A DNA stretch of 64,000 nucleotides from a virus: IMG/VR virus record IMGVR_UViG_3300028908_000008, positions 5,264 to 69,263 of that record, one strand, 5' to 3'. Positions 42,202 through 64,000 of the stretch are shown here, one piece after another (position 1 is the first letter of the stretch; each line of letters starts with the position of its first letter). The notes beneath the pieces are model-generated. The model had not been told where the DNA came from. It was given only the letters and a program-made list of their open reading frames with translations, and made no database searches. The translations under genes were made by a program, and so were the position numbers.

Positions 42202-44259
42202 TTGAAAATGTTTGAAAAGTCCGATGTATCATTTGATATCGAAATGTATCAAAATTACTTCTTAGTAGGTTTTCAAGATGTAGTTACTAAAAACTATAAG
42301 CAGTTTGAAGTAAAAAAATCTTCAAAAGCACTAACTAAAAAACAGATAAGTGAAATAAAAAACATTATTAGCAAAAATAGATTAATAGGTTTTAATTGCA
42401 TAAAATATGATATACCGATATTACTACTCGCTTTAGAGGGTAGAGATGTTAAATATCTCTATAACGCTAGTACGCTTATTATCAAAGAGAATTTTAGTAT
42501 ATATAAAACTTCTCAAATGTATGACTTAGATCGAGAGTTAAAGCAAGTGAATCAAGTAGATTTATCTACAATCGACATTGCAAGAGGGGCGTTTATAAGC
42601 CTTAAACAATATGGAGCAAGGATTAATGCTCCTACTATCCAAGATTTACCTATAAAATGGGATTCAAAACTCTCTAAAGAGGACATGAAAGAGATAAAAA
42701 CATATAATCTAAATGATTTAGACTTAACTACTCAATTATATGAGTATGGGAAAGCAAATATAGAACTAAGGGAGTTTTTATCGAAAAAATATGAAGTGAA
42801 TCTAACAAGTTCACAAGGTGCAAAAATTGCAGAAACTATTATTAGTAGTGAATTTGCAAAAAGAGGCAAGTATCTGAAGCGGTCGGAATTAGAAGCAGGG
42901 GAAGAGATTAGATATAAAGCTCCTAAACATATAAAGTTTAGAGATAAATCCCTAAAACAACTATTGAAGAACTTTAAAAATACACCCCTGATAATAAATG
43001 AATCGGGAAATATAATTAAACCTGATTTTTTAAAAGACCCTATAACAGTGAACAAAACCTCTTATACTGTAGGACTAGGTGGATTACACGCTATTATTAA
43101 AAATAAAGGAATAGTTCCGAAAAAAGATGAGGTTCTAAATCAGCCCGATGTTGGGAGTTATTATCCAAGTATGATACTAGCTTATGGCTTTAAAGCTAAG
43201 GGCATGGGAGAACTTTTCGATAAGATTTATAGAGGTTTGGTTGCAGATAGGTTTAAATGGAAAGTGTTAGATTCCAAACTAAAACACCTCAAAAATGATG
43301 ATTGGAAAACTGCTATGTTAAACAATAACGGTTTGAAACTAGTGCTAAATGCACTTTTTGGTACTTATGGAAATAAATGGTTTAAAACTTATGCTCCTGA
43401 TTTGTTAATTCAAATAACTATTACTGGTCAGCTTAATTTGTTAATGCTTATTGAATGGTTAGAAGATGCAGGGATAAAAGTAAAAAGTGCTAATACCGAT
43501 TCAGTTTTAATACTTCACAAGAAAAAAGATTCTAAAAAAGCTAAAAAAATACTAAAGAAATGGGAGAAGGTTACTTCTATGAGTTTAGAAGATGATTATA
43601 TTGATGCCTTTTTTGCAAGAGATATAAATTCTTATATGTACACTAAAAAGGGTGGCTATGATGGTATAGCATACTTCAAAAAATTCAAAGATGTATCCAA
43701 AAATCTTGAATACCCAATAGTATATAAGGCTATAGGTGATTTTATATCCAAAGATATCCCAATAGAAGAGACTATCGGTGAATGTAACGATATAACAGAG
43801 TTTGTATCCACTAGAAAAAGCACTACTGGAGCGACTTACAAAGGTAACTTAATAGGTAAAGCTTTAAGATTCTATTATTGCGATGATGATGATGCACTAT
43901 TTAACATTATAACTGATGAGAAAATAGAAAACTACAATGAACGATATAGTATTTATGAAGAAAAATTAAAAATCTATAATGATGAAGTTTCTAAATGGGA
44001 AGAAGCTCTATTAAAATGGAAAGAAACTAAAGAGGGTAAAAGACCTCTTAAGCCTAAAAAAATATATCCTCCAACAAAACCAAATGAAACAAAAGTATCA
44101 AAATCAGACTTTGCTTATCCATGTTTGAAATTACCTCATAATATCCCTGAAAATTTAGATAGAGAATTTTATGTAAAACTAGCATATAAGCATATTAAAG
44201 AGATTGGATGGACTAAAAAACTACAAAAGAGGATCATTAAAAATGCTCAAAAAAAGTAA
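42202..44259 (+). CDS. Family B DNA polymerase with 3'-5' exonuclease
   Basis: ExoI FDIE, ExoII GFNCIKYD, ExoIII YNLND; motif A DVGSYYPS, B KLVLNALFG, C ANTDS. Confidence 0.93.
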   Translation: MKMFEKSDVSFDIEMYQNYFLVGFQDVVTKNYKQFEVKKSSKALTKKQISEIKNIISKNRLIGFNCIKYDIPILLLALEGRDVKYLYNASTLIIKENFSIYKTSQMYDLDRELKQVNQVDLSTIDIARGAFISLKQYGARINAPTIQDLPIKWDSKLSKEDMKEIKTYNLNDLDLTTQLYEYGKANIELREFLSKKYEVNLTSSQGAKIAETIISSEFAKRGKYLKRSELEAGEEIRYKAPKHIKFRDKSLKQLLKNFKNTPLIINESGNIIKPDFLKDPITVNKTSYTVGLGGLHAIIKNKGIVPKKDEVLNQPDVGSYYPSMILAYGFKAKGMGELFDKIYRGLVADRFKWKVLDSKLKHLKNDDWKTAMLNNNGLKLVLNALFGTYGNKWFKTYAPDLLIQITITGQLNLLMLIEWLEDAGIKVKSANTDSVLILHKKKDSKKAKKILKKWEKVTSMSLEDDYIDAFFARDINSYMYTKKGGYDGIAYFKKFKDVSKNLEYPIVYKAIGDFISKDIPIEETIGECNDITEFVSTRKSTTGATYKGNLIGKALRFYYCDDDDALFNIITDEKIENYNERYSIYEEKLKIYNDEVSKWEEALLKWKETKEGKRPLKPKKIYPPTKPNETKVSKSDFAYPCLKLPHNIPENLDREFYVKLAYKHIKEIGWTKKLQKRIIKNAQKK

Positions 44260-48165: not shown

Positions 48166-48456
48166 CTATTGTAGCTTTTTTCCCCTTTTTTGCAAAATCT
48201 TAACTTGTTCTTCCACCTCTTCTAAACTAAAAGCAAACATAGAAAAACCTTTAGATTCATGTACACTTTTAGATTCTAATCTTTGAAGGGGCTTGATTGT
48301 ATCCCCTTTATCCTTCACCTCTATTGCTAGAAATAAGCCATTTACACATGCAATAATATCTGCAATGCCTTTTCTATTACTAGAAACAGTAACAAAATTA
48401 TATATCTTTTGATCGTTAAGATATTTAATGATCCTCGTTTGTAGTTTAGATGCCAT
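48166..48456 (-). CDS. VRR-NUC domain nuclease
   Basis: SKLQTRI...GIADII...FLAIEVK....PLQ. Confidence 0.88.
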   Translation of the reverse strand: MASKLQTRIIKYLNDQKIYNFVTVSSNRKGIADIIACVNGLFLAIEVKDKGDTIKPLQRLESKSVHESKGFSMFAFSLEEVEEQVKILQKRGKKLQ

Positions 48457-49051
48457 CTTTCAATCGCTTTTTAAGTTTTTTGTAAATCTTCCATGTAGCT
48501 TCAATATCGCTGAGTGCATCATGGGCATTGATATTGATATTTAAATGTTTAGCTATTGTAGAGAGTCGATGATTAGGGAGTTTGTGAAAATCCCATTCAT
48601 TGATTAGAAAAAGTTTGACTAACTCATAAACATCAAAACCTTTATAGTTTATAAATCCCCCGTATATACCTTTGTTATCATTAAACCACATTTGTAACAT
48701 CTGCTCATCAAATCGAGAACTGTTGTACCCCATAGGTGTATAGTTGTCACCTCTTGAATAAGGGTCTACATATTCAGCCAAAAATAATTGAAATTTTCCA
48801 AATATTTTTTTTTGTGAGGGGTATGATTTTAAATCCTCTATAGAAGTATCCGTTATTTTTAAAGCTTCGTTACTTAGAAGAAAATCCCTATTAAGTGTAT
48901 AAGGATTCATTTTTTCATTGAACTTATCAACAATCTTCCCATTTGGAGCTATAATCAAGGCTCCAATTTGTGTAATTGCAGGTTGTTTTTTCTTGCCAAT
49001 TTGCAATAATCCTGTAGTTTCAACATCAAAACATAATGTGAACTTTTTCAT
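48446..49051 (-). CDS. DEDDh 3'-5' exonuclease (DnaQ-like)
   Basis: FDVETTG, GYNS.RFD, HDALSD. Confidence 0.92.
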   Translation of the reverse strand: MKKFTLCFDVETTGLLQIGKKKQPAITQIGALIIAPNGKIVDKFNEKMNPYTLNRDFLLSNEALKITDTSIEDLKSYPSQKKIFGKFQLFLAEYVDPYSRGDNYTPMGYNSSRFDEQMLQMWFNDNKGIYGGFINYKGFDVYELVKLFLINEWDFHKLPNHRLSTIAKHLNININAHDALSDIEATWKIYKKLKKRLKDGI

Positions 49052-49350
49052 TTTAAATCCTCCATAGACACTTTTGTTAAAGATGGCTCACATTTGTAAC
49101 ATTTATCACATTTGTAACCCATGGAGCTATACTCATCTCCTTTTCGATAAGGGTTTACATACTCACCTAAAGATATTTTAAATTTTTCAATTATCTTTTT
49201 TTGCAAGGGATGCGGTATCAGCTCTTCTTTTGTAGTAACAGTCATTCGTGAAACTTCATCACTTAGAGGAAAATCCTTATTGAGAGTGAAAGGCTTCATT
49301 TTCTGATTGATCTTGCCGTTTTGTAGTAGTTTAAGTGAAAACTTTTTCAT
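49048..49350 (-). CDS. Degenerate paralog of the adjacent exonuclease lacking catalytic motifs
   Basis: Aligns to 48446-49051 by eye; DxE motif absent and the C-terminal half replaced. Confidence 0.7.
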   Translation of the reverse strand: MKKFSLKLLQNGKINQKMKPFTLNKDFPLSDEVSRMTVTTKEELIPHPLQKKIIEKFKISLGEYVNPYRKGDEYSSMGYKCDKCYKCEPSLTKVSMEDLK

Positions 49351-49412
49351 GTTAAGTCCTTTTTTTAAGTATGTAATATTATACTCCAAAAGGACTTAAA
49401 AATATCTTCCTT

Positions 49413-59278: not shown

Positions 59279-59476
59279 ATGTTATTAAAAAAAGAAGAGG
59301 TTATCCCTGAATCAAGGTTAGAGAGAGTGCAAATCCCGTTTAAAGCGAATAGAGACTTAAAAGATAAATTAGACCTAGTGTCTAAAGAGTTAGTTGTTAG
59401 TAGACAAGGCTTAATTGAACAAATACTGATTAAAAATCTAACATCATTGTTAGAAGAGATAAACAATGGAGATTAA
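59279..59476 (+). CDS. RHH-like DNA-binding protein
   Basis: IPFKANRDLKDKLD....VSRQGLIEQIL. Confidence 0.7.
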   Translation: MLLKKEEVIPESRLERVQIPFKANRDLKDKLDLVSKELVVSRQGLIEQILIKNLTSLLEEINNGD

Positions 59477-59660
59477 ATTGAAGCAAATTAGTTTAAAAAG
59501 AGGTAAACATGATTTTATCATTAGGTATAATAGTGGCAAAGCAATGGGGTATATTGATGGCGTGAATATCGGTGTAGCTATAAAACCCGATCAGTTAATA
59601 CATCGTTTTGAAGTGCTAACTAGCATGAAGGATCAATTAAAACTAGAAGACTTTGAATAG
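59466..59660 (+). CDS. hypothetical protein
   Basis: 64 aa, overlaps the upstream gene. Confidence 0.65.
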   Translation: MEIKLKQISLKRGKHDFIIRYNSGKAMGYIDGVNIGVAIKPDQLIHRFEVLTSMKDQLKLEDFE

Positions 59661-59664
59661 TCTT

Positions 59665-61602
59665 CTAGCGGTGGTGTTGATACTGTTTAGTTTCAAAATC
59701 TACATTAAAATATAAATTTAGAGTGTGTATCATTGCATGACAATCCAAATAATCATTTCTAGTTCTTATTTTAGTCCATATTCCATCATTCATTAAATCT
59801 TTTTGTTCAGCAGTTAGTTGCATAGAATAATGTTTCATTTGCAATTTACCATGATTTGCAATAAACTCCTTTTCATCGCTAATAATTGTTTCATTAACAT
59901 AAAATAAGCGTCTAACATAATTAAAACCTTTTTCACTCTCATCTTTAGCACTAACTTTATTTAAAGTTCGGCTTATAATCATTGCTAAATCATCTTTTAT
60001 AGCCGTATTGCTCATCACTAGAGTTTTATATTTCACTTCTACATCATCATCTAAAACCTCTTTTCTATTACTAACTTTATATAGTTGATCGTCAAATAAT
60101 TTATCAACACCCAAACAGCCGAAAACTTCTTGATCTGTAATACCATTACTATCAATATAGTCTTGTAGAGAAACTAAGAAAGCCTTTGCTTCAGCGATTC
60201 TATCCACACTACCTTTTTTATATCCCCTTAAATCCATTATAATTCCACTTACTTGAAAATATTTATCAATAGATTTATACATTCTAGTAAATAAATCCCT
60301 CACAAATTCAAAATCTTCATCTGTATCGTTGCTAACAGCTTTCCCATGTGCGATAGTGTACTGGACATTGTCATAAGTAACAGCAGATAAAACCCAATAT
60401 ACATGATCTTTTTGATTATCCACTCCAAGGAAAATTTTATATGTATCTTCAGGTATAACTAATTCATTTAGTCCTGAACCGAGTTTATGGATATCATCAA
60501 TATCTATAATATCTATTTTAGAAGAGTAAAGCTCATTGAAATAATCTCTATATATCCTTGCAAGGACATTTATGGACTCATTAGCTTTAATAATTAGTGT
60601 CATCATTTCATCAAAAGGGGTGAAATAAGTAGCAAGGGCGTTTACTAGATATCCTATGGATTCTGCACCTTCTTCACCTTCAACAATTTTAAATCCACAC
60701 TTCCCCTCTTTTATGAGTCGATCTTTTGTGTAACTATCAAATTCATGTTTGCAATAAGTACACACTAAATGAGCTTTCCTCTCTTTAGCAATTTTAAGAT
60801 GATCTAGCATATGGTAAGTGTTTTCATCTTTGTTAAACTCTTTCATGTATTCATCTTTAGTTAAAAATTTTAGATTGTTTGAAGTTGGATAAAACAACTC
60901 ATGACATGAAGGGCATTGTAAGCACCACTCTTTTTTTAATTCACAATCTAAATATGATTGATCTATAGGATCGCCGATATGCTCCCAACTTGACACGCCT
61001 ACAATTTTTCTACCCATTTTAGAAAAAGATTTTGTTCTATTTATGAATTCACTAACATCAGCCATACCGCCTTTAAATAGTCTAATCTCATCAAGTAATA
61101 GCACTTTTATTGATTTAGCATTTCTAGCTAAAGCAGTATTACCTGCAATGACCCATTTGCCACTATAAGTCACTTTTAGATTATCTTTTGTAGCCGTTGT
61201 GGTCTCTTTAGCGTATTTTTGTATAGCATCTCTGTAGGTTGGTACAGATTGAATAAATGGATTAATTTTAGTAGAAATATATTGTTTAACTTCTGATTCT
61301 AAGGGGATTGATATTTGCACCATGCCGCCAACAGTATCTAAAGTTTTAACACCTGCTATAAATAGAAATGATGTTTTGGCTGTTTGTGTTGAAGCTTTTA
61401 CCCATTGAAATACGGTTGATGGTTTATCAAAATCATCACACATACCCTTTAAATGTGGTGTAATATCAAAACTAAAATCACCTGCAAACGCCGATGTTTC
61501 AGTTGTCATCTTAATATTGTTTACAGCCCAGTCGGTAGTATTTTGGAGCATTTGCCATGTGTAACTAGATTTGTATAAAACGCCTTCGTGAGTATTAATC
61601 AT
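59665..61602 (-). CDS. terL: Terminase large subunit (lambda gpA family)
   Basis: TPHL, KASTQTAKT, LLLDE, CPSC/CTYC zinc motif, GVDNQ, RNDYLDC. Confidence 0.93.
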   Translation of the reverse strand: MINTHEGVLYKSSYTWQMLQNTTDWAVNNIKMTTETSAFAGDFSFDITPHLKGMCDDFDKPSTVFQWVKASTQTAKTSFLFIAGVKTLDTVGGMVQISIPLESEVKQYISTKINPFIQSVPTYRDAIQKYAKETTTATKDNLKVTYSGKWVIAGNTALARNAKSIKVLLLDEIRLFKGGMADVSEFINRTKSFSKMGRKIVGVSSWEHIGDPIDQSYLDCELKKEWCLQCPSCHELFYPTSNNLKFLTKDEYMKEFNKDENTYHMLDHLKIAKERKAHLVCTYCKHEFDSYTKDRLIKEGKCGFKIVEGEEGAESIGYLVNALATYFTPFDEMMTLIIKANESINVLARIYRDYFNELYSSKIDIIDIDDIHKLGSGLNELVIPEDTYKIFLGVDNQKDHVYWVLSAVTYDNVQYTIAHGKAVSNDTDEDFEFVRDLFTRMYKSIDKYFQVSGIIMDLRGYKKGSVDRIAEAKAFLVSLQDYIDSNGITDQEVFGCLGVDKLFDDQLYKVSNRKEVLDDDVEVKYKTLVMSNTAIKDDLAMIISRTLNKVSAKDESEKGFNYVRRLFYVNETIISDEKEFIANHGKLQMKHYSMQLTAEQKDLMNDGIWTKIRTRNDYLDCHAMIHTLNLYFNVDFETKQYQHHR

Positions 61603-61684
61603 AGAAAACTCCTTTTTAAGATTAAGTATAGCCTTTTTAATTTAATACTTGTTAGACTTCTAAAATAGAAAAAAAGGTTGTTGA

Positions 61685-63001
61685 ATGGAAAGAGATTATC
61701 AAATTATGTATTTTGCAACATGTGCTAAATACTTATGTATAGGTTTTACTGATGGAAAAACTAGCAAGATATTCAAAAGTAAGAAAAACGGTAGGTTAAA
61801 AAATCGTGAAATTGAACAAATTGAAAGAATCTTAGAGAATTATACTATATATGCAATAGATAGGGAAAACATACTAATAGGTATAGTGCGTACTTTGATA
61901 GATTATAAAGCTCCACTTGTATATAACTTCATCACCAAGCATATAAACTTACCACCTTGGCAATTATCTAAGCGTATAGGGTACTATCATAGACCTAATT
62001 ATGTTCCACTTAAGTACCAAGCCGAACATACACCTAAATTAGAAACTATATGTTTAAAATCATGCACTAAAATTAAAAAAACAGTTAAAGATCAACTAGA
62101 ACACATACATAATGCTTTTAAAACAGATCAACTAAAACATGCCAATGCGTATGAATACATGTATGTGGTATCTAGTACAAAAAGAGAACATTCACTTAAA
62201 ATAGGTGTAACTGATGATATTGATGCAAGACTAATAGCTCTTAAGAAAAAGTTTCCATCTGAAAAATTCAATCTTGAAAAATTATATACACATAAGAAAC
62301 AATTAAGATATTCTACATTTATTTTCGATGAAGAGCAAAAAATACATAATATATCAAATAGAGCTGGATATCACAAGAAAGACCGTCATGAATGGCACGA
62401 GCTTTCACTTAAAGCTCTTCATAAATACTTTAAAAAATTAGGTTTTAAAAGAGTTAAGAAAACTAATCCATTCAAGATTAATCCATTCAAGATTGTAAAT
62501 TTAAAACCTAAAGTATTTTGCAAAAATGAGAGATTGAATTTTTCCGATGAAGTAGATAGAAATACATATTTAATGGTTAGAGAACCTGACTTTGACGAGT
62601 GGTTTGAACTTCTAATAAGCCAATGTGAAAGCGTTTTAGATATCGATCTACACAACTATATATTATATGATAGGGAGTACGCTAAATTGATACATAGTTT
62701 GTATACTGGAGTTAATATAGTGAACAAAATCCCTTCAATCGTAGGAATGTTGAATAATTTCCTTCATTTCATGGAGAAAGACTCAAATTTTAGCAATGTT
62801 GCTACCTTGCAAAAAATAGAGGTTGTAATCATGCTTATATACTTGCAATATATTGATATAGCCGAATCATTGCAAAAAAAGCTAATTTTTTTCAAAGAAG
62901 TCTTTGGAGAATTTGAGTTTGGTAATCCTGATAATGTGTATTTGAAAATTCTCGGCACAATAGATTCAAGATTCAACCAGTTTAAATTAGAATTGAATTA
63001 G
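61685..63001 (+). CDS. GIY-YIG (T5orf172-like) nuclease domain inside a degenerate PolB-like scaffold
   Basis: YMYVV...KIGVTDDIDARL...EEQKIH...HEW; flanks align by eye with the phage PolB. Confidence 0.7.
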   Translation: MERDYQIMYFATCAKYLCIGFTDGKTSKIFKSKKNGRLKNREIEQIERILENYTIYAIDRENILIGIVRTLIDYKAPLVYNFITKHINLPPWQLSKRIGYYHRPNYVPLKYQAEHTPKLETICLKSCTKIKKTVKDQLEHIHNAFKTDQLKHANAYEYMYVVSSTKREHSLKIGVTDDIDARLIALKKKFPSEKFNLEKLYTHKKQLRYSTFIFDEEQKIHNISNRAGYHKKDRHEWHELSLKALHKYFKKLGFKRVKKTNPFKINPFKIVNLKPKVFCKNERLNFSDEVDRNTYLMVREPDFDEWFELLISQCESVLDIDLHNYILYDREYAKLIHSLYTGVNIVNKIPSIVGMLNNFLHFMEKDSNFSNVATLQKIEVVIMLIYLQYIDIAESLQKKLIFFKEVFGEFEFGNPDNVYLKILGTIDSRFNQFKLELN

Positions 63002-63020
63002 AGGGCGATATACCCTCTAA
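62998..63020. terminator. Bidirectional hairpin TTAGAGGG-cgatata-CCCTCTAA containing both stop codons
   Basis: Convergent gene ends. Confidence 0.65.
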
Positions 63021-63664
63021 TCATTCAATTTCCCTATCAAATCATCTACATTTCCATTATTTTCAATTAATAATTTCATAACTAATTGCATAACATCATA
63101 AAAAGCTAAGTCGTTATCTGTGCTTGTATTAGCAAAAGAGTTTAAATCTTTTATCCTCTTATCGTAATGAGCATCTAATCTCTTGCTAATGTCGTTTCTA
63201 TTAAGATTCTCTAAGTCAATAGGTAATAATCGTAAATCATTCTTATAGTTTGTTACAAGTTGAGTTTGTAACTCACTCATAGCTTTGTCAACCTCATCAG
63301 CTCTAATAGTTGCACCTCGTGCTAATTCATTTTCTAAAAGTATCTTTTCTAATTTAGCTTCGGCTATATTTGCATCAGCTTCATCTTTTCTATCTCTTGC
63401 ATCTCCAAAACTTTCATGTTGTACTTTACTTCTTTTACTTGCAAACTTGTTAGTTAATTCTTCTTCAAGCTTAAGCAAATCGTGTTCATGTTTAGCTTTT
63501 AATTTATTGCCATGATATTCAACTTCATACTCAACATGTAACTTAATTGCATCACTTAATTCAAATTTTTTGGATAGAGGTAAGAGTCCTTTTTGCATAT
63601 ACCATTTCAATCTATGCTCATCAATCATTAACAACTTCATTAGTTCAAATTTACCAATTCTCAT
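63017..63664 (-). CDS. terS: Terminase small subunit (Nu1-like)
   Basis: N-terminal HTH-like segment (KGLLP..FELSDAI), ARDRK..A.A..A.LE...G..I...EV, LP; upstream of TerL. Confidence 0.8.
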   Translation of the reverse strand: MRIGKFELMKLLMIDEHRLKWYMQKGLLPLSKKFELSDAIKLHVEYEVEYHGNKLKAKHEHDLLKLEEELTNKFASKRSKVQHESFGDARDRKDEADANIAEAKLEKILLENELARGATIRADEVDKAMSELQTQLVTNYKNDLRLLPIDLENLNRNDISKRLDAHYDKRIKDLNSFANTSTDNDLAFYDVMQLVMKLLIENNGNVDDLIGKLND

Positions 63665-63709
63665 TAAATCCACCTTTTTTAGGTATATATTACTAAAAAT
63701 TAATTGATA

Positions 63710-64000
63710 TGACAACTGTATAAATTTTATACAGTTTTGTGATTAAAAAGTGTACAGACGGGAAAAAAGTTGTTAAAATGTAACTGTTTTACGACGAAAC
63801 ACACGATTTATAACTGTTTTTCGGCATTCTAACCTTAATTGAAACTTAGATATCCGAAAATATACCGATGATCGGAGGTTTTTTTGAGCATAAAAAATAC
63901 TATATTTTAAGCTATTTTACCCCGCCCCGTGCAAACTTGTTTAAGGTTGTAAAAAAAATTATTCAGAGAGAGGAAAGCCGCGAATTTTGCAATCCCCATG
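63710..64000 (-). other. Probable cos-proximal packaging region
   Basis: Non-coding, GC-richer patch upstream of terS; TAACTGTTTT at 63781 and 63811; inference from lambda layout. Confidence 0.4.

What the first reader, a model, noticed from the sequence alone, without database searches (positions are those of the whole stretch)
61685..63001. Apparently dead copy of the phage's own DNA polymerase B with a GIY-YIG nuclease inserted
By eye, both flanks of this 438-aa ORF are colinear with the PolB at 42202-44259. The N-flank YLCIGFTDGKTSKIFKSKKNGRLKNREIEQIERIL matches YFLVGFQDVVTKNYKQFEVKKSSKALTKKQISEIKNII, and VPLKYQA matches ISLKQYGA. In the C-flank, VREPDFDEWFELLI matches LNQPDVGSYYPSMI, LYDREYAKLI matches LFDKIYRGLV, and LQKIEVVIMLIYLQYIDIAESLQKKL matches LIQITITGQLNLLMLIEWLEDAGIKV. 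The ExoI DIE, ExoII D, ExoIII and motif C NTD residues appear lost, and the thumb is missing. A T5orf172-like GIY-YIG domain (about aa 155-250) sits between the exonuclease and palm parts, and a 15-bp tandem duplication (NPFKI-NPFKI, about 62464-62494) lies near its 3' junction. The ORF is intact and sits on the opposite strand between terS and terL. Inference: a polymerase fold reused as a targeting scaffold for a nuclease (primer-template or fork-directed cutting, exclusion of competing phages, or concatemer processing), or a decoy for defences that sense phage polymerases. I know of no described family with this architecture.
Basis: partly seen in the sequence, partly recalled or inferred. 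Interest (0 to 1): 0.85.

Follow-up and report, generated by a model that had tools for sequence, protein, structure and literature searches.

The report
Mobile nuclease gene between terminase genes
The 438-residue gene is most likely a selfish, insertable DNA-cutting (homing-endonuclease-type) gene that landed between the phage's two DNA-packaging genes, not a dead copy of its DNA polymerase, although its first ~100 residues do faintly resemble the start of that polymerase family.

Summary
The ORF (61685-63001, +, 438 aa) is real and intact. It carries a T5orf172 (GIY-YIG clan) domain at aa 158-251 and an exact 15-bp tandem duplication. It lies antisense between terS and terL.

The main new result is that the ORF sits in a 1,422-bp insertion. 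In metagenome contig L002, whose TerL is 96% identical, the terS stop overlaps the terL start and nothing lies between them. In the window, a 7-bp repeat (ATGATTA) flanks the insert. This matches the free-standing T5orf172 homing endonuclease genes described near phage terminase genes.

The polymerase claim holds only in part. The C-flank shows no similarity to PolB: 77 of 100 shuffles score as well or better. The N-flank (aa ~12-100) does match the N-terminus of the PolB family profile. The hhalign score is 38.4, reached by 0 of 200 shuffles and 0 of 77 natural control segments; HMMER agrees. The match is to the family profile, not to the phage's own PolB. The catalytic acids are absent.

The protein has no homolog among 1.84 billion representatives. 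Both structure predictions failed. I class it as a new variant of a known kind, of modest interest.

The parts
61603..63024 (.). 1,422-bp insertion (1,415 bp plus one copy of a 7-bp repeat), absent from relative L002
   Evidence: In L002 (TerL 96% identical) the terS stop overlaps the terL start. Identity to the window breaks exactly at these borders.
63018..63024 (-). ATGATTA, repeat copy at the end of terS (it contributes to the terS stop codon)
61596..61602 (-). ATGATTA, repeat copy at the terL start codon
61685..63001 (+). Intact 438-aa ORF (P0001), antisense to terS and terL
   Evidence: single copy in the 69,263-bp record
61718..61987 (+). aa 12-101: weak similarity to the N-terminal (ExoI-ExoII) part of the PolB family exonuclease domain; catalytic acids absent
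   Evidence: hhalign 38.4, P 6.6e-5. Controls: 0 of 200 and 0 of 77 reach it. Leave-out tests. HMMER 11.2 bits, above 500 of 500 shuffles.
62156..62437 (+). T5orf172 (GIY-YIG clan) nuclease domain, aa 158-251
   Evidence: Pfam; 36 bits in the six-frame scan. The eight columns invariant in a 4-sequence T5orf172 alignment are all kept: Y158 Y160 K172 G174 R182 E217 H221 E236.
62464..62494 (+). Exact 15-bp tandem duplication (NPFKI NPFKI) in the linker after the nuclease domain
62495..62998 (+). C-terminal ~170 aa with no detectable relatives; presumed DNA-binding or specificity part (inference)
   Evidence: No Pfam or PHROG hit; no PolB similarity.
62997..63021 (+). Hairpin (9-pair stem, 7-nt loop) that contains both convergent stop codons, the ORF's and terS's
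   Evidence: sequence
61609..61614 (-). AAGGAG Shine-Dalgarno, 6 nt before the terL ATG, supplied by the insert (in L002 terL is coupled to terS)
59665..61602 (-). terL (context)
   Evidence: PF05876/PF20454
63017..63715 (-). terS (context; weak family hit)

Best explanation
The ORF is a free-standing T5orf172-family (GIY-YIG clan) homing-endonuclease-type gene, carried on a 1.4-kb cassette that inserted into the overlapping terS-stop/terL-start junction.

Shown:
- The cassette is present here and absent at the identical site in a relative.
- It duplicates the 7-bp overlap, so both packaging genes stay whole.
- It gives terL a new ribosome-binding site.
- It ends in a hairpin.
- The nuclease domain keeps the residues that are invariant in other T5orf172 proteins.

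Inferred:
- During co-infection the enzyme cuts the uninterrupted terS/terL region of relatives that lack it. Repair from the occupied genome then copies the gene in.
- The two unique flanks supply DNA recognition.

The N-terminal ~100 aa probably descend from the start of a PolB proofreading domain of this polymerase family. They have lost the catalytic acids. The piece was captured by domain shuffling and is not a copy of the resident polB.
For: - Insertion polymorphism with exact borders and a 7-bp flanking repeat.
- T5orf172 domain above Pfam's cut-off, with all 8 invariant alignment columns kept.
- Antisense, free-standing layout like the annotated T5orf172 'endonuclease' of Vibrio phage 234P10, which lies between tail genes.
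- Published survey: T5orf172 genes are treated as HEGs, and 35% of 468 neighbourhoods hold a terminase gene (passages).
- T5orf172 nucleases are known to gain foreign N-terminal domains, as in Odn/Gp88 (passages).
- The ORF also occurs at about 96% nucleotide identity in a run of another study. Two 151-nt contigs cover 61734-61884 and 62824-62972, with no indels.
- N-flank signal.
Against: - Only one empty-site relative was available. It is about 90% identical in terL DNA (dS 0.62).
- No cleavage, expression or co-conversion data exist.
- No recognisable DNA-binding domain was found.
- The nuclease domain is central, whereas HEG nuclease domains are usually terminal.
- A 7-bp flanking duplication is not a usual HEG hallmark.
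- The protein has no homolog among 1.84 billion representatives. It is the only T5orf172 gene in the record, which is unlike lineages with HEG expansions.
- Of the 5 substitutions listed against the second sample (of 11 counted), 4 change the residue. The gene may therefore be drifting rather than maintained.
- The N-flank signal is weak: hhalign probability is 29-64%, PHROG and Pfam polymerase profiles do not hit it, and no structural support exists.
Confidence: 0.68

Rival explanations
1. The whole ORF is a dead, colinear copy of the phage's own PolB with a GIY-YIG domain inserted between the exonuclease and palm parts, and the polymerase fold is reused as a targeting scaffold or decoy.
For: The N-flank aligns colinearly with the PolB N-terminus.
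Against: - The C-flank is indistinguishable from shuffled sequence, even though the palm motifs are the best-conserved part of the family.
- The own PolB alone gives no signal.
- There is no DNA or tblastn similarity between the insert and the rest of the window.
- None of 8 longer PolB relatives scanned has a T5orf172 insertion.
- The gene is an optional insert.
Confidence: 0.04
2. A domesticated nuclease that is no longer a selfish element. It would serve the phage against competitors, satellites or host DNA, in the manner of ICP1 Odn. The PolB-like N-terminus would direct it to DNA ends or replication intermediates, or to a partner of PolB.
For: - There is a precedent of a T5orf172 nuclease with a captured replication-protein domain.
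- The ORF is intact and persists at about 4% divergence in another sample.
- The N-flank signal.
Against: - The gene is absent from a close relative.
- 4 of 5 listed substitutions are non-synonymous.
- It gives no hit to defence models.
- The PolB-like part lacks all the acids and covers under half of the exonuclease domain.
Confidence: 0.13
3. A decaying remnant: a homing endonuclease gene that is fixed locally and drifting, still open by chance, with flanks that are no longer functional.
For: - 4 of 5 listed substitutions change the residue, against 32.5 of 194 in terL.
- There is a fresh in-frame duplication.
- No homologs exist.
Against: - A 438-codon frame is open in a 29% G+C stretch.
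- All 8 T5orf172 columns are kept.
- There are no indels in the 300 nt covered in the second sample.
- The substitution sample is very small.
Confidence: 0.12
4. A packaging accessory nuclease that works with the terminase, as described for some HNH proteins beside terminase genes (recalled, not looked up here).
For: Its position between terS and terL.
Against: It is absent in a relative whose TerL is 96% identical and whose terS and terL are translationally coupled. It lies on the opposite strand.
Confidence: 0.02

Closest known systems
Free-standing T5orf172 homing endonuclease genes of ICP1, T5-like, Plateaulakevirus and other phages (Barth, Dunham, Seed; bioRxiv 10.1101/2023.03.23.533998; passages read)
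   Same: The T5orf172 nuclease domain; a stand-alone gene beside essential genes, terminase in particular; presence or absence between relatives; repeats and duplications within the gene.
   Different: Those carry zinc-finger or CapR-like DNA-binding repeats, with the nuclease at one end. Here the nuclease is central, both flanks are unique, and the N-flank resembles a PolB N-terminus. No sequence relative of this protein was found.
ICP1 Odn (Gp88), a chimeric origin-directed T5orf172 nuclease (PMC8263062; passages read)
   Same: A T5orf172 domain joined to an N-terminal domain taken from a replication protein.
   Different: Odn's captured RepA_N domain is 42% identical to its source and is a known DNA binder. 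Here the similarity is only at profile level, to an exonuclease subdomain, and the function is untested.
T4 Seg (GIY-YIG) and Mob (HNH) free-standing homing endonucleases (Edgell et al. 2010, PMC2988022; search listing only; details recalled)
   Same: Intergenic insertion between conserved genes, own expression signals, and patchy distribution among relatives.
   Different: A different GIY-YIG subfamily. PF01541 does not hit this genome. The Seg proteins have N-terminal nuclease domains.
Mycobacterial epsilon-exonuclease/Cho-like GIY-YIG fusion (Dunin-Horkawicz et al. 2006, PMC1564403; passage read)
   Same: The domain order: a proofreading-type exonuclease-like domain followed by a GIY-YIG-clan nuclease. 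A low-TM Atlas lead points to such a cluster.
   Different: Those have an active DnaQ-type domain (PF00929) and a UvrC/Cho-type GIY-YIG, and they are repair enzymes. Neither family hits this protein.
The phage's PolB family (phrog_1252; alignment A1)
   Same: aa ~12-100 align with Pol 14-108 (strand-strand-helix-strand region around ExoI and ExoII).
   Different: There is no DxE, no ExoII or ExoIII acids, and no palm, fingers or thumb. The match is not specific to the resident gene.

Membership tests
T5orf172 domain proteins (PF10544, GIY-YIG clan) | Match to the family profile above the curated cut-off | tested here: met
   31.6 bits against a cut-off of 20, aa 158-251; 36 bits in the six-frame scan.
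T5orf172 domain proteins (PF10544, GIY-YIG clan) | Conserved motif residues (two Tyr in strand 1, K-x-G in strand 2, Arg, Glu/His helix, Glu of the EW motif) | tested here: met
   All 8 columns invariant in a 4-sequence alignment are kept. The other three sequences are Pfam-verified T5orf172 proteins. The alignment is small, and the catalytic roles are recalled rather than tested.
Free-standing homing endonuclease genes | Gene present or absent at the same site in otherwise colinear relatives | tested here: met
   L002 has the empty site, and the borders are exact. Only one relative could be read.
Free-standing homing endonuclease genes | Insertion in or beside conserved essential genes without destroying them | tested here: met
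   terS and terL are both intact. The 7-bp overlap is duplicated and a new SD is supplied for terL.
Free-standing homing endonuclease genes | Site-specific cleavage of the allele that lacks the gene, and gene conversion | not testable with these tools
   Needs an enzyme assay on the L002-type junction.
Free-standing homing endonuclease genes | Recognisable DNA-binding module | tested here: inconclusive
   No Pfam, PHROG or NCBIfam hit in either flank. Both structure models were unusable.
Family B DNA polymerase | ExoI DxE, ExoII and ExoIII acidic residues | tested here: not met
   In the hhalign alignment, Pol D12/E14 face Y9/A11 and Pol N65/D70 face D59/L64. D120 falls in a gap.
Family B DNA polymerase | Palm and fingers motifs A, B and C | tested here: not met
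   C-flank against the palm sub-profile scores 11.7, and 77 of 100 shuffles score as well or better. hhalign P 0.39.
Family B DNA polymerase | Profile similarity of the N-terminal exonuclease region | tested here: inconclusive
   Above all controls. But the hhalign probability is only 29-64%, there is no hit from the public polymerase profiles, and there is no structure.
DnaQ-exonuclease/GIY-YIG (Cho-like) fusions | PF00929 and PF01541 domains | tested here: not met
   Neither was found.
Known anti-phage defence proteins (PADLOC) | Match to any model | tested here: not met
   0 families at E up to 1.

The most novel reading that the evidence does not exclude
A T5orf172 homing-type nuclease has captured and inactivated the first ~100 residues of a PolB proofreading domain, and it uses that piece functionally. 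The piece might hold 3' ends or primer-template junctions, or mimic PolB's N-terminus towards a replisome partner. The result would be a chimeric nuclease aimed at replicating DNA of competing phages. This would be a second, independent case of the Odn principle, built from a polymerase fragment.
Probability: 0.12. Interest if true: 0.7.

Novelty: new variant of a known kind. Interest (0 to 1): 0.33.

Why it matters
T5orf172 nucleases are a large, little-tested class of phage homing endonucleases. They shape recombination boundaries, and in one known case one was rebuilt into an anti-satellite weapon. This gene gives a clean occupied-versus-empty pair at a terS/terL junction, so its target can be tested directly in vitro. 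If the PolB-like N-terminus is real, it would show that such nucleases can recruit pieces of replication enzymes. As it stands, the finding is mostly an ordinary mobile nuclease gene with unusual, orphan flanks.

Tried and rejected
Structure.
- AlphaFold2 on the single sequence gave mean pLDDT 33.4 for the whole protein and 39.8 for aa 1-157. Both models are unusable, so no fold search was run.
- I did not fold the N-flank with a PolB alignment. The result would be circular.

ESM Atlas.
- N-flank: no feature hit. The structural neighbours all have TM 0.26-0.38 on a model of pLDDT 0.46. Five of 10 rows are RNase H-like folds by my recollection (ROK, IS110 twice, RNase_T with GIY-YIG, Hsp70). 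This is a lead only.
- C-flank: best feature hit 0.76 to a T5orf172 cluster, and TM 0.50 to a helical-repeat cluster. These are leads only.

Homolog searches. Each found only the protein itself or nothing. The PDB sequence search gave nothing meaningful. PADLOC and NCBIfam gave nothing. The flanks gave nothing against Pfam or PHROGs.

Relatives. TerL in viral contigs gave no relative. The TerL 90% cluster has 5 members.

Reads and signals.
- Read laying showed no joints across the insert. All the data were contigs, so this says nothing about a mixed population. Parts of the stretch without cover in X2 are not evidence.
- Promoter-like sites numbered 14 against 11.7 expected, so no promoter can be named.
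- The insert has no repeat elsewhere in the window. Its G+C is 28.9% against 31.3% for the window, which is not informative.
- The N-flank shows nothing against the phage's DEDDh exonuclease or its truncated neighbour.

Supplements. The supplementary tables of the Barth et al. survey were not seen. They might list architectures like this one.

Full report
**What is there.**

The window is bases 5264-69263 of a 69,263-bp linear viral record, estimated 82% complete. The ORF at 61685-63001 (+) is open for 438 codons. A TGA lies directly before its ATG, so it cannot extend upstream.

It lies tail-to-tail with terS (63017-63715, -) and head-to-head with terL (59665-61602, -). The portal gene follows terL.

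- Pfam places a T5orf172 domain (GIY-YIG clan) at aa 158-251: E 2.4e-7, 31.6 bits against a cut-off of 20.
- Two PHROG families of unknown function cover the same region.
- Tandem Repeats Finder confirms the exact 15-bp duplication at 62464-62494.
- The gene at 42202-44259 is a family B-type polymerase: phrog_1252 E 1.5e-130; PDB 1s5j E 3.2e-6; relatives carry PF00136 or PF03175, and one is named family B by its source.

**The gene is an insertion.**

A metagenome contig, L002 (2,581 bp), encodes a TerL that is 96% identical. In L002 the terS reading frame ends in a stop codon that overlaps the terL start codon. No gene lies between them.

Aligned to the window, identity on the terL side begins exactly at the ATG. 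Identity on the terS side ends one base before the end of the stop codon.

- The window therefore carries 1,422 extra bases (61603-63024).
- The 7-bp ATGATTA that is single in L002 stands at both ends of the insert (63024..63018 and 61602..61596 on the - strand).
- The insert supplies an AAGGAG 6 nt before the terL ATG.
- It ends in a hairpin (62997-63021) that contains both convergent stop codons.

terL and the terS fragment are under strong purifying selection between the two phages: dN/dS 0.034 and 0.049, with dS about 0.6. So the two phages are not very close in DNA, yet the borders are sharp.

**The nuclease domain looks intact.**

A tblastn with aa 150-255 gave only weak hits (E 0.8-2) in 9 phage records. 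I fetched three of them. Their proteins all pass Pfam's T5orf172 cut-off.

In the four-sequence alignment, eight columns are invariant and P0001 keeps all of them: Y158, Y160, K172, G174, R182, E217, H221, E236.

One of the three is annotated 'endonuclease' in Vibrio phage 234P10. It also lies alone on the opposite strand between tail genes.

**The polymerase claim.**

BLASTP of the ORF against PolB finds nothing.

*C-flank (aa 255-438).*
- Smith-Waterman against Pol 291-480 is below the shuffle mean: z -1.1, with 278 of 300 shuffles as good or better.
- hhalign against the 47-sequence PolB alignment A1 gives P 0.39. A1 holds P0002 plus 46 of the 53 hits. I left out P0023, P0027, P0031, P0035, P0045, P0051 and P0055.
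- Against only the palm/fingers columns, 77 of 100 shuffles score as well or better in local mode, and 62 of 100 in global mode.
- The by-eye C-flank matches are chance.

*N-flank (aa 1-150).* The result here is different.
- Smith-Waterman z is 3.7, with 3 of 300 shuffles as good.
- hhalign scores 38.4 (P 6.6e-5, probability 64%) for aa 16-99 against Pol 19-108. With the whole protein as query the probability is 29%.
- None of 200 shuffles reaches the score: mean 14.8, sd 2.5, maximum 24.0.
- None of 77 natural 150-aa segments from 35 other ORFs of the same phage reaches it: mean 14.9, sd 2.8, maximum 27.3.
- The best control is the phage's own DEDDh-type exonuclease, a true distant relative of proofreading domains.
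- The signal survives removal of the phage's own PolB and its 93% relative (36.8). It appears in each of two disjoint halves of the family (34.4 and 37.3).
- It vanishes with the own PolB pair alone (16.5, P 0.17) and with the 12 most distant members.
- A HMMER profile of Pol 1-210 gives 11.2 bits. That is above all 500 shuffles (maximum 7.5) and above 76 of 77 natural segments. Only the DEDDh exonuclease scores higher, at 12.7 bits.

*Against the N-flank signal.*
- Public Pfam and PHROG polymerase or exonuclease profiles do not hit the N-flank.
- There is no pairwise signal.
- Both AlphaFold runs failed.

In the alignment the ExoI and ExoII acids face Y9/A11 and D59/L64, and the D120 column is gapped.

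My estimate is about 60% that aa ~12-100 truly descend from a PolB-family N-terminus. Whichever way that falls, the ORF is not a copy of the resident gene and not a whole polymerase scaffold.

**Relatives and constraint.**

The protein has no relative in the word-indexed 5.8-billion-sequence collection, among 1.84 billion representatives read by HMMER, or in 50,697 phage records.

A run from a second study (X2) holds two 151-nt contigs, about 96% identical, over 61734-61884 and 62824-62972. It also holds a terS piece with 2 differences in 181 nt. No indels are listed. So the gene exists beyond the source sample.

Of the 11 differences counted in the two ORF pieces, 5 are listed. One is synonymous and 4 change the residue: R37K, E44K, E409K and N414S. 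In terL only 32.5 of 194 changes are non-synonymous. This hints at relaxed constraint, but the sample is very small.

**Comparison with what is known.**

Barth, Dunham and Seed treat T5orf172 genes as homing endonuclease genes (passages read). They report the following:
- 35% of 468 T5orf172 neighbourhoods in 204 phage genomes contain a terminase gene.
- The nuclease domain usually sits at one terminus.
- The DNA-binding parts are repeat-rich and recombine.

ICP1 Odn/Gp88 joins a T5orf172 domain to a RepA_N domain taken from a satellite (passages read). An epsilon-exonuclease/GIY-YIG fusion is known in mycobacteria (passage read).

Earlier notes of this scan list several T5orf172 genes beside terminase genes in other phages. 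I did not check them.

The present gene fits the class by its domain, position and insertion polymorphism. It differs in the central position of the nuclease domain, the orphan flanks and the possible PolB-derived N-terminus.

**Verdict.**

This is most likely a free-standing T5orf172 homing-type nuclease cassette at the terS/terL junction (confidence about 0.7). It may be already drifting.

- Novelty: new variant of a known kind.
- Interest: modest. It rests on the testable empty/occupied target pair and on the possible polymerase-fragment capture.

Noticed in passing
window 48446-49389 (-): The 201-aa protein at 48446-49051 begins with a DnaQ-type FDVETTG-like motif. It was the best natural control against the PolB profile (hhalign 27.3-27.5; HMMER 12.7 bits).
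   Followed up: partly
window 59279-59660 (+); L002 2269-2572 (-): Two small ORFs (65 and 64 aa) lie antisense between portal and terL. Homologs stand at the same place in L002, so unlike the nuclease gene this antisense pair is shared by both phages.
   Followed up: partly
window 59665-61602 vs L002 327-2264: TerL is 96% identical in protein but about 10% different in DNA (dS 0.62, dN/dS 0.034). The relative is therefore much older than the protein identity suggests.
   Followed up: yes
window 63716-64000: The record ends about 285 bases beyond the terS start. The contig end may lie near the genome's packaging end, or it may simply be an assembly break.
   Followed up: no
P0023 (971 aa) and P0045 (1,117 aa), PolB relatives: Two PolB-family relatives are 300-430 residues longer than the rest. 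Pfam explains none of the extra length. They might hold inteins or other insertions.
   Followed up: partly
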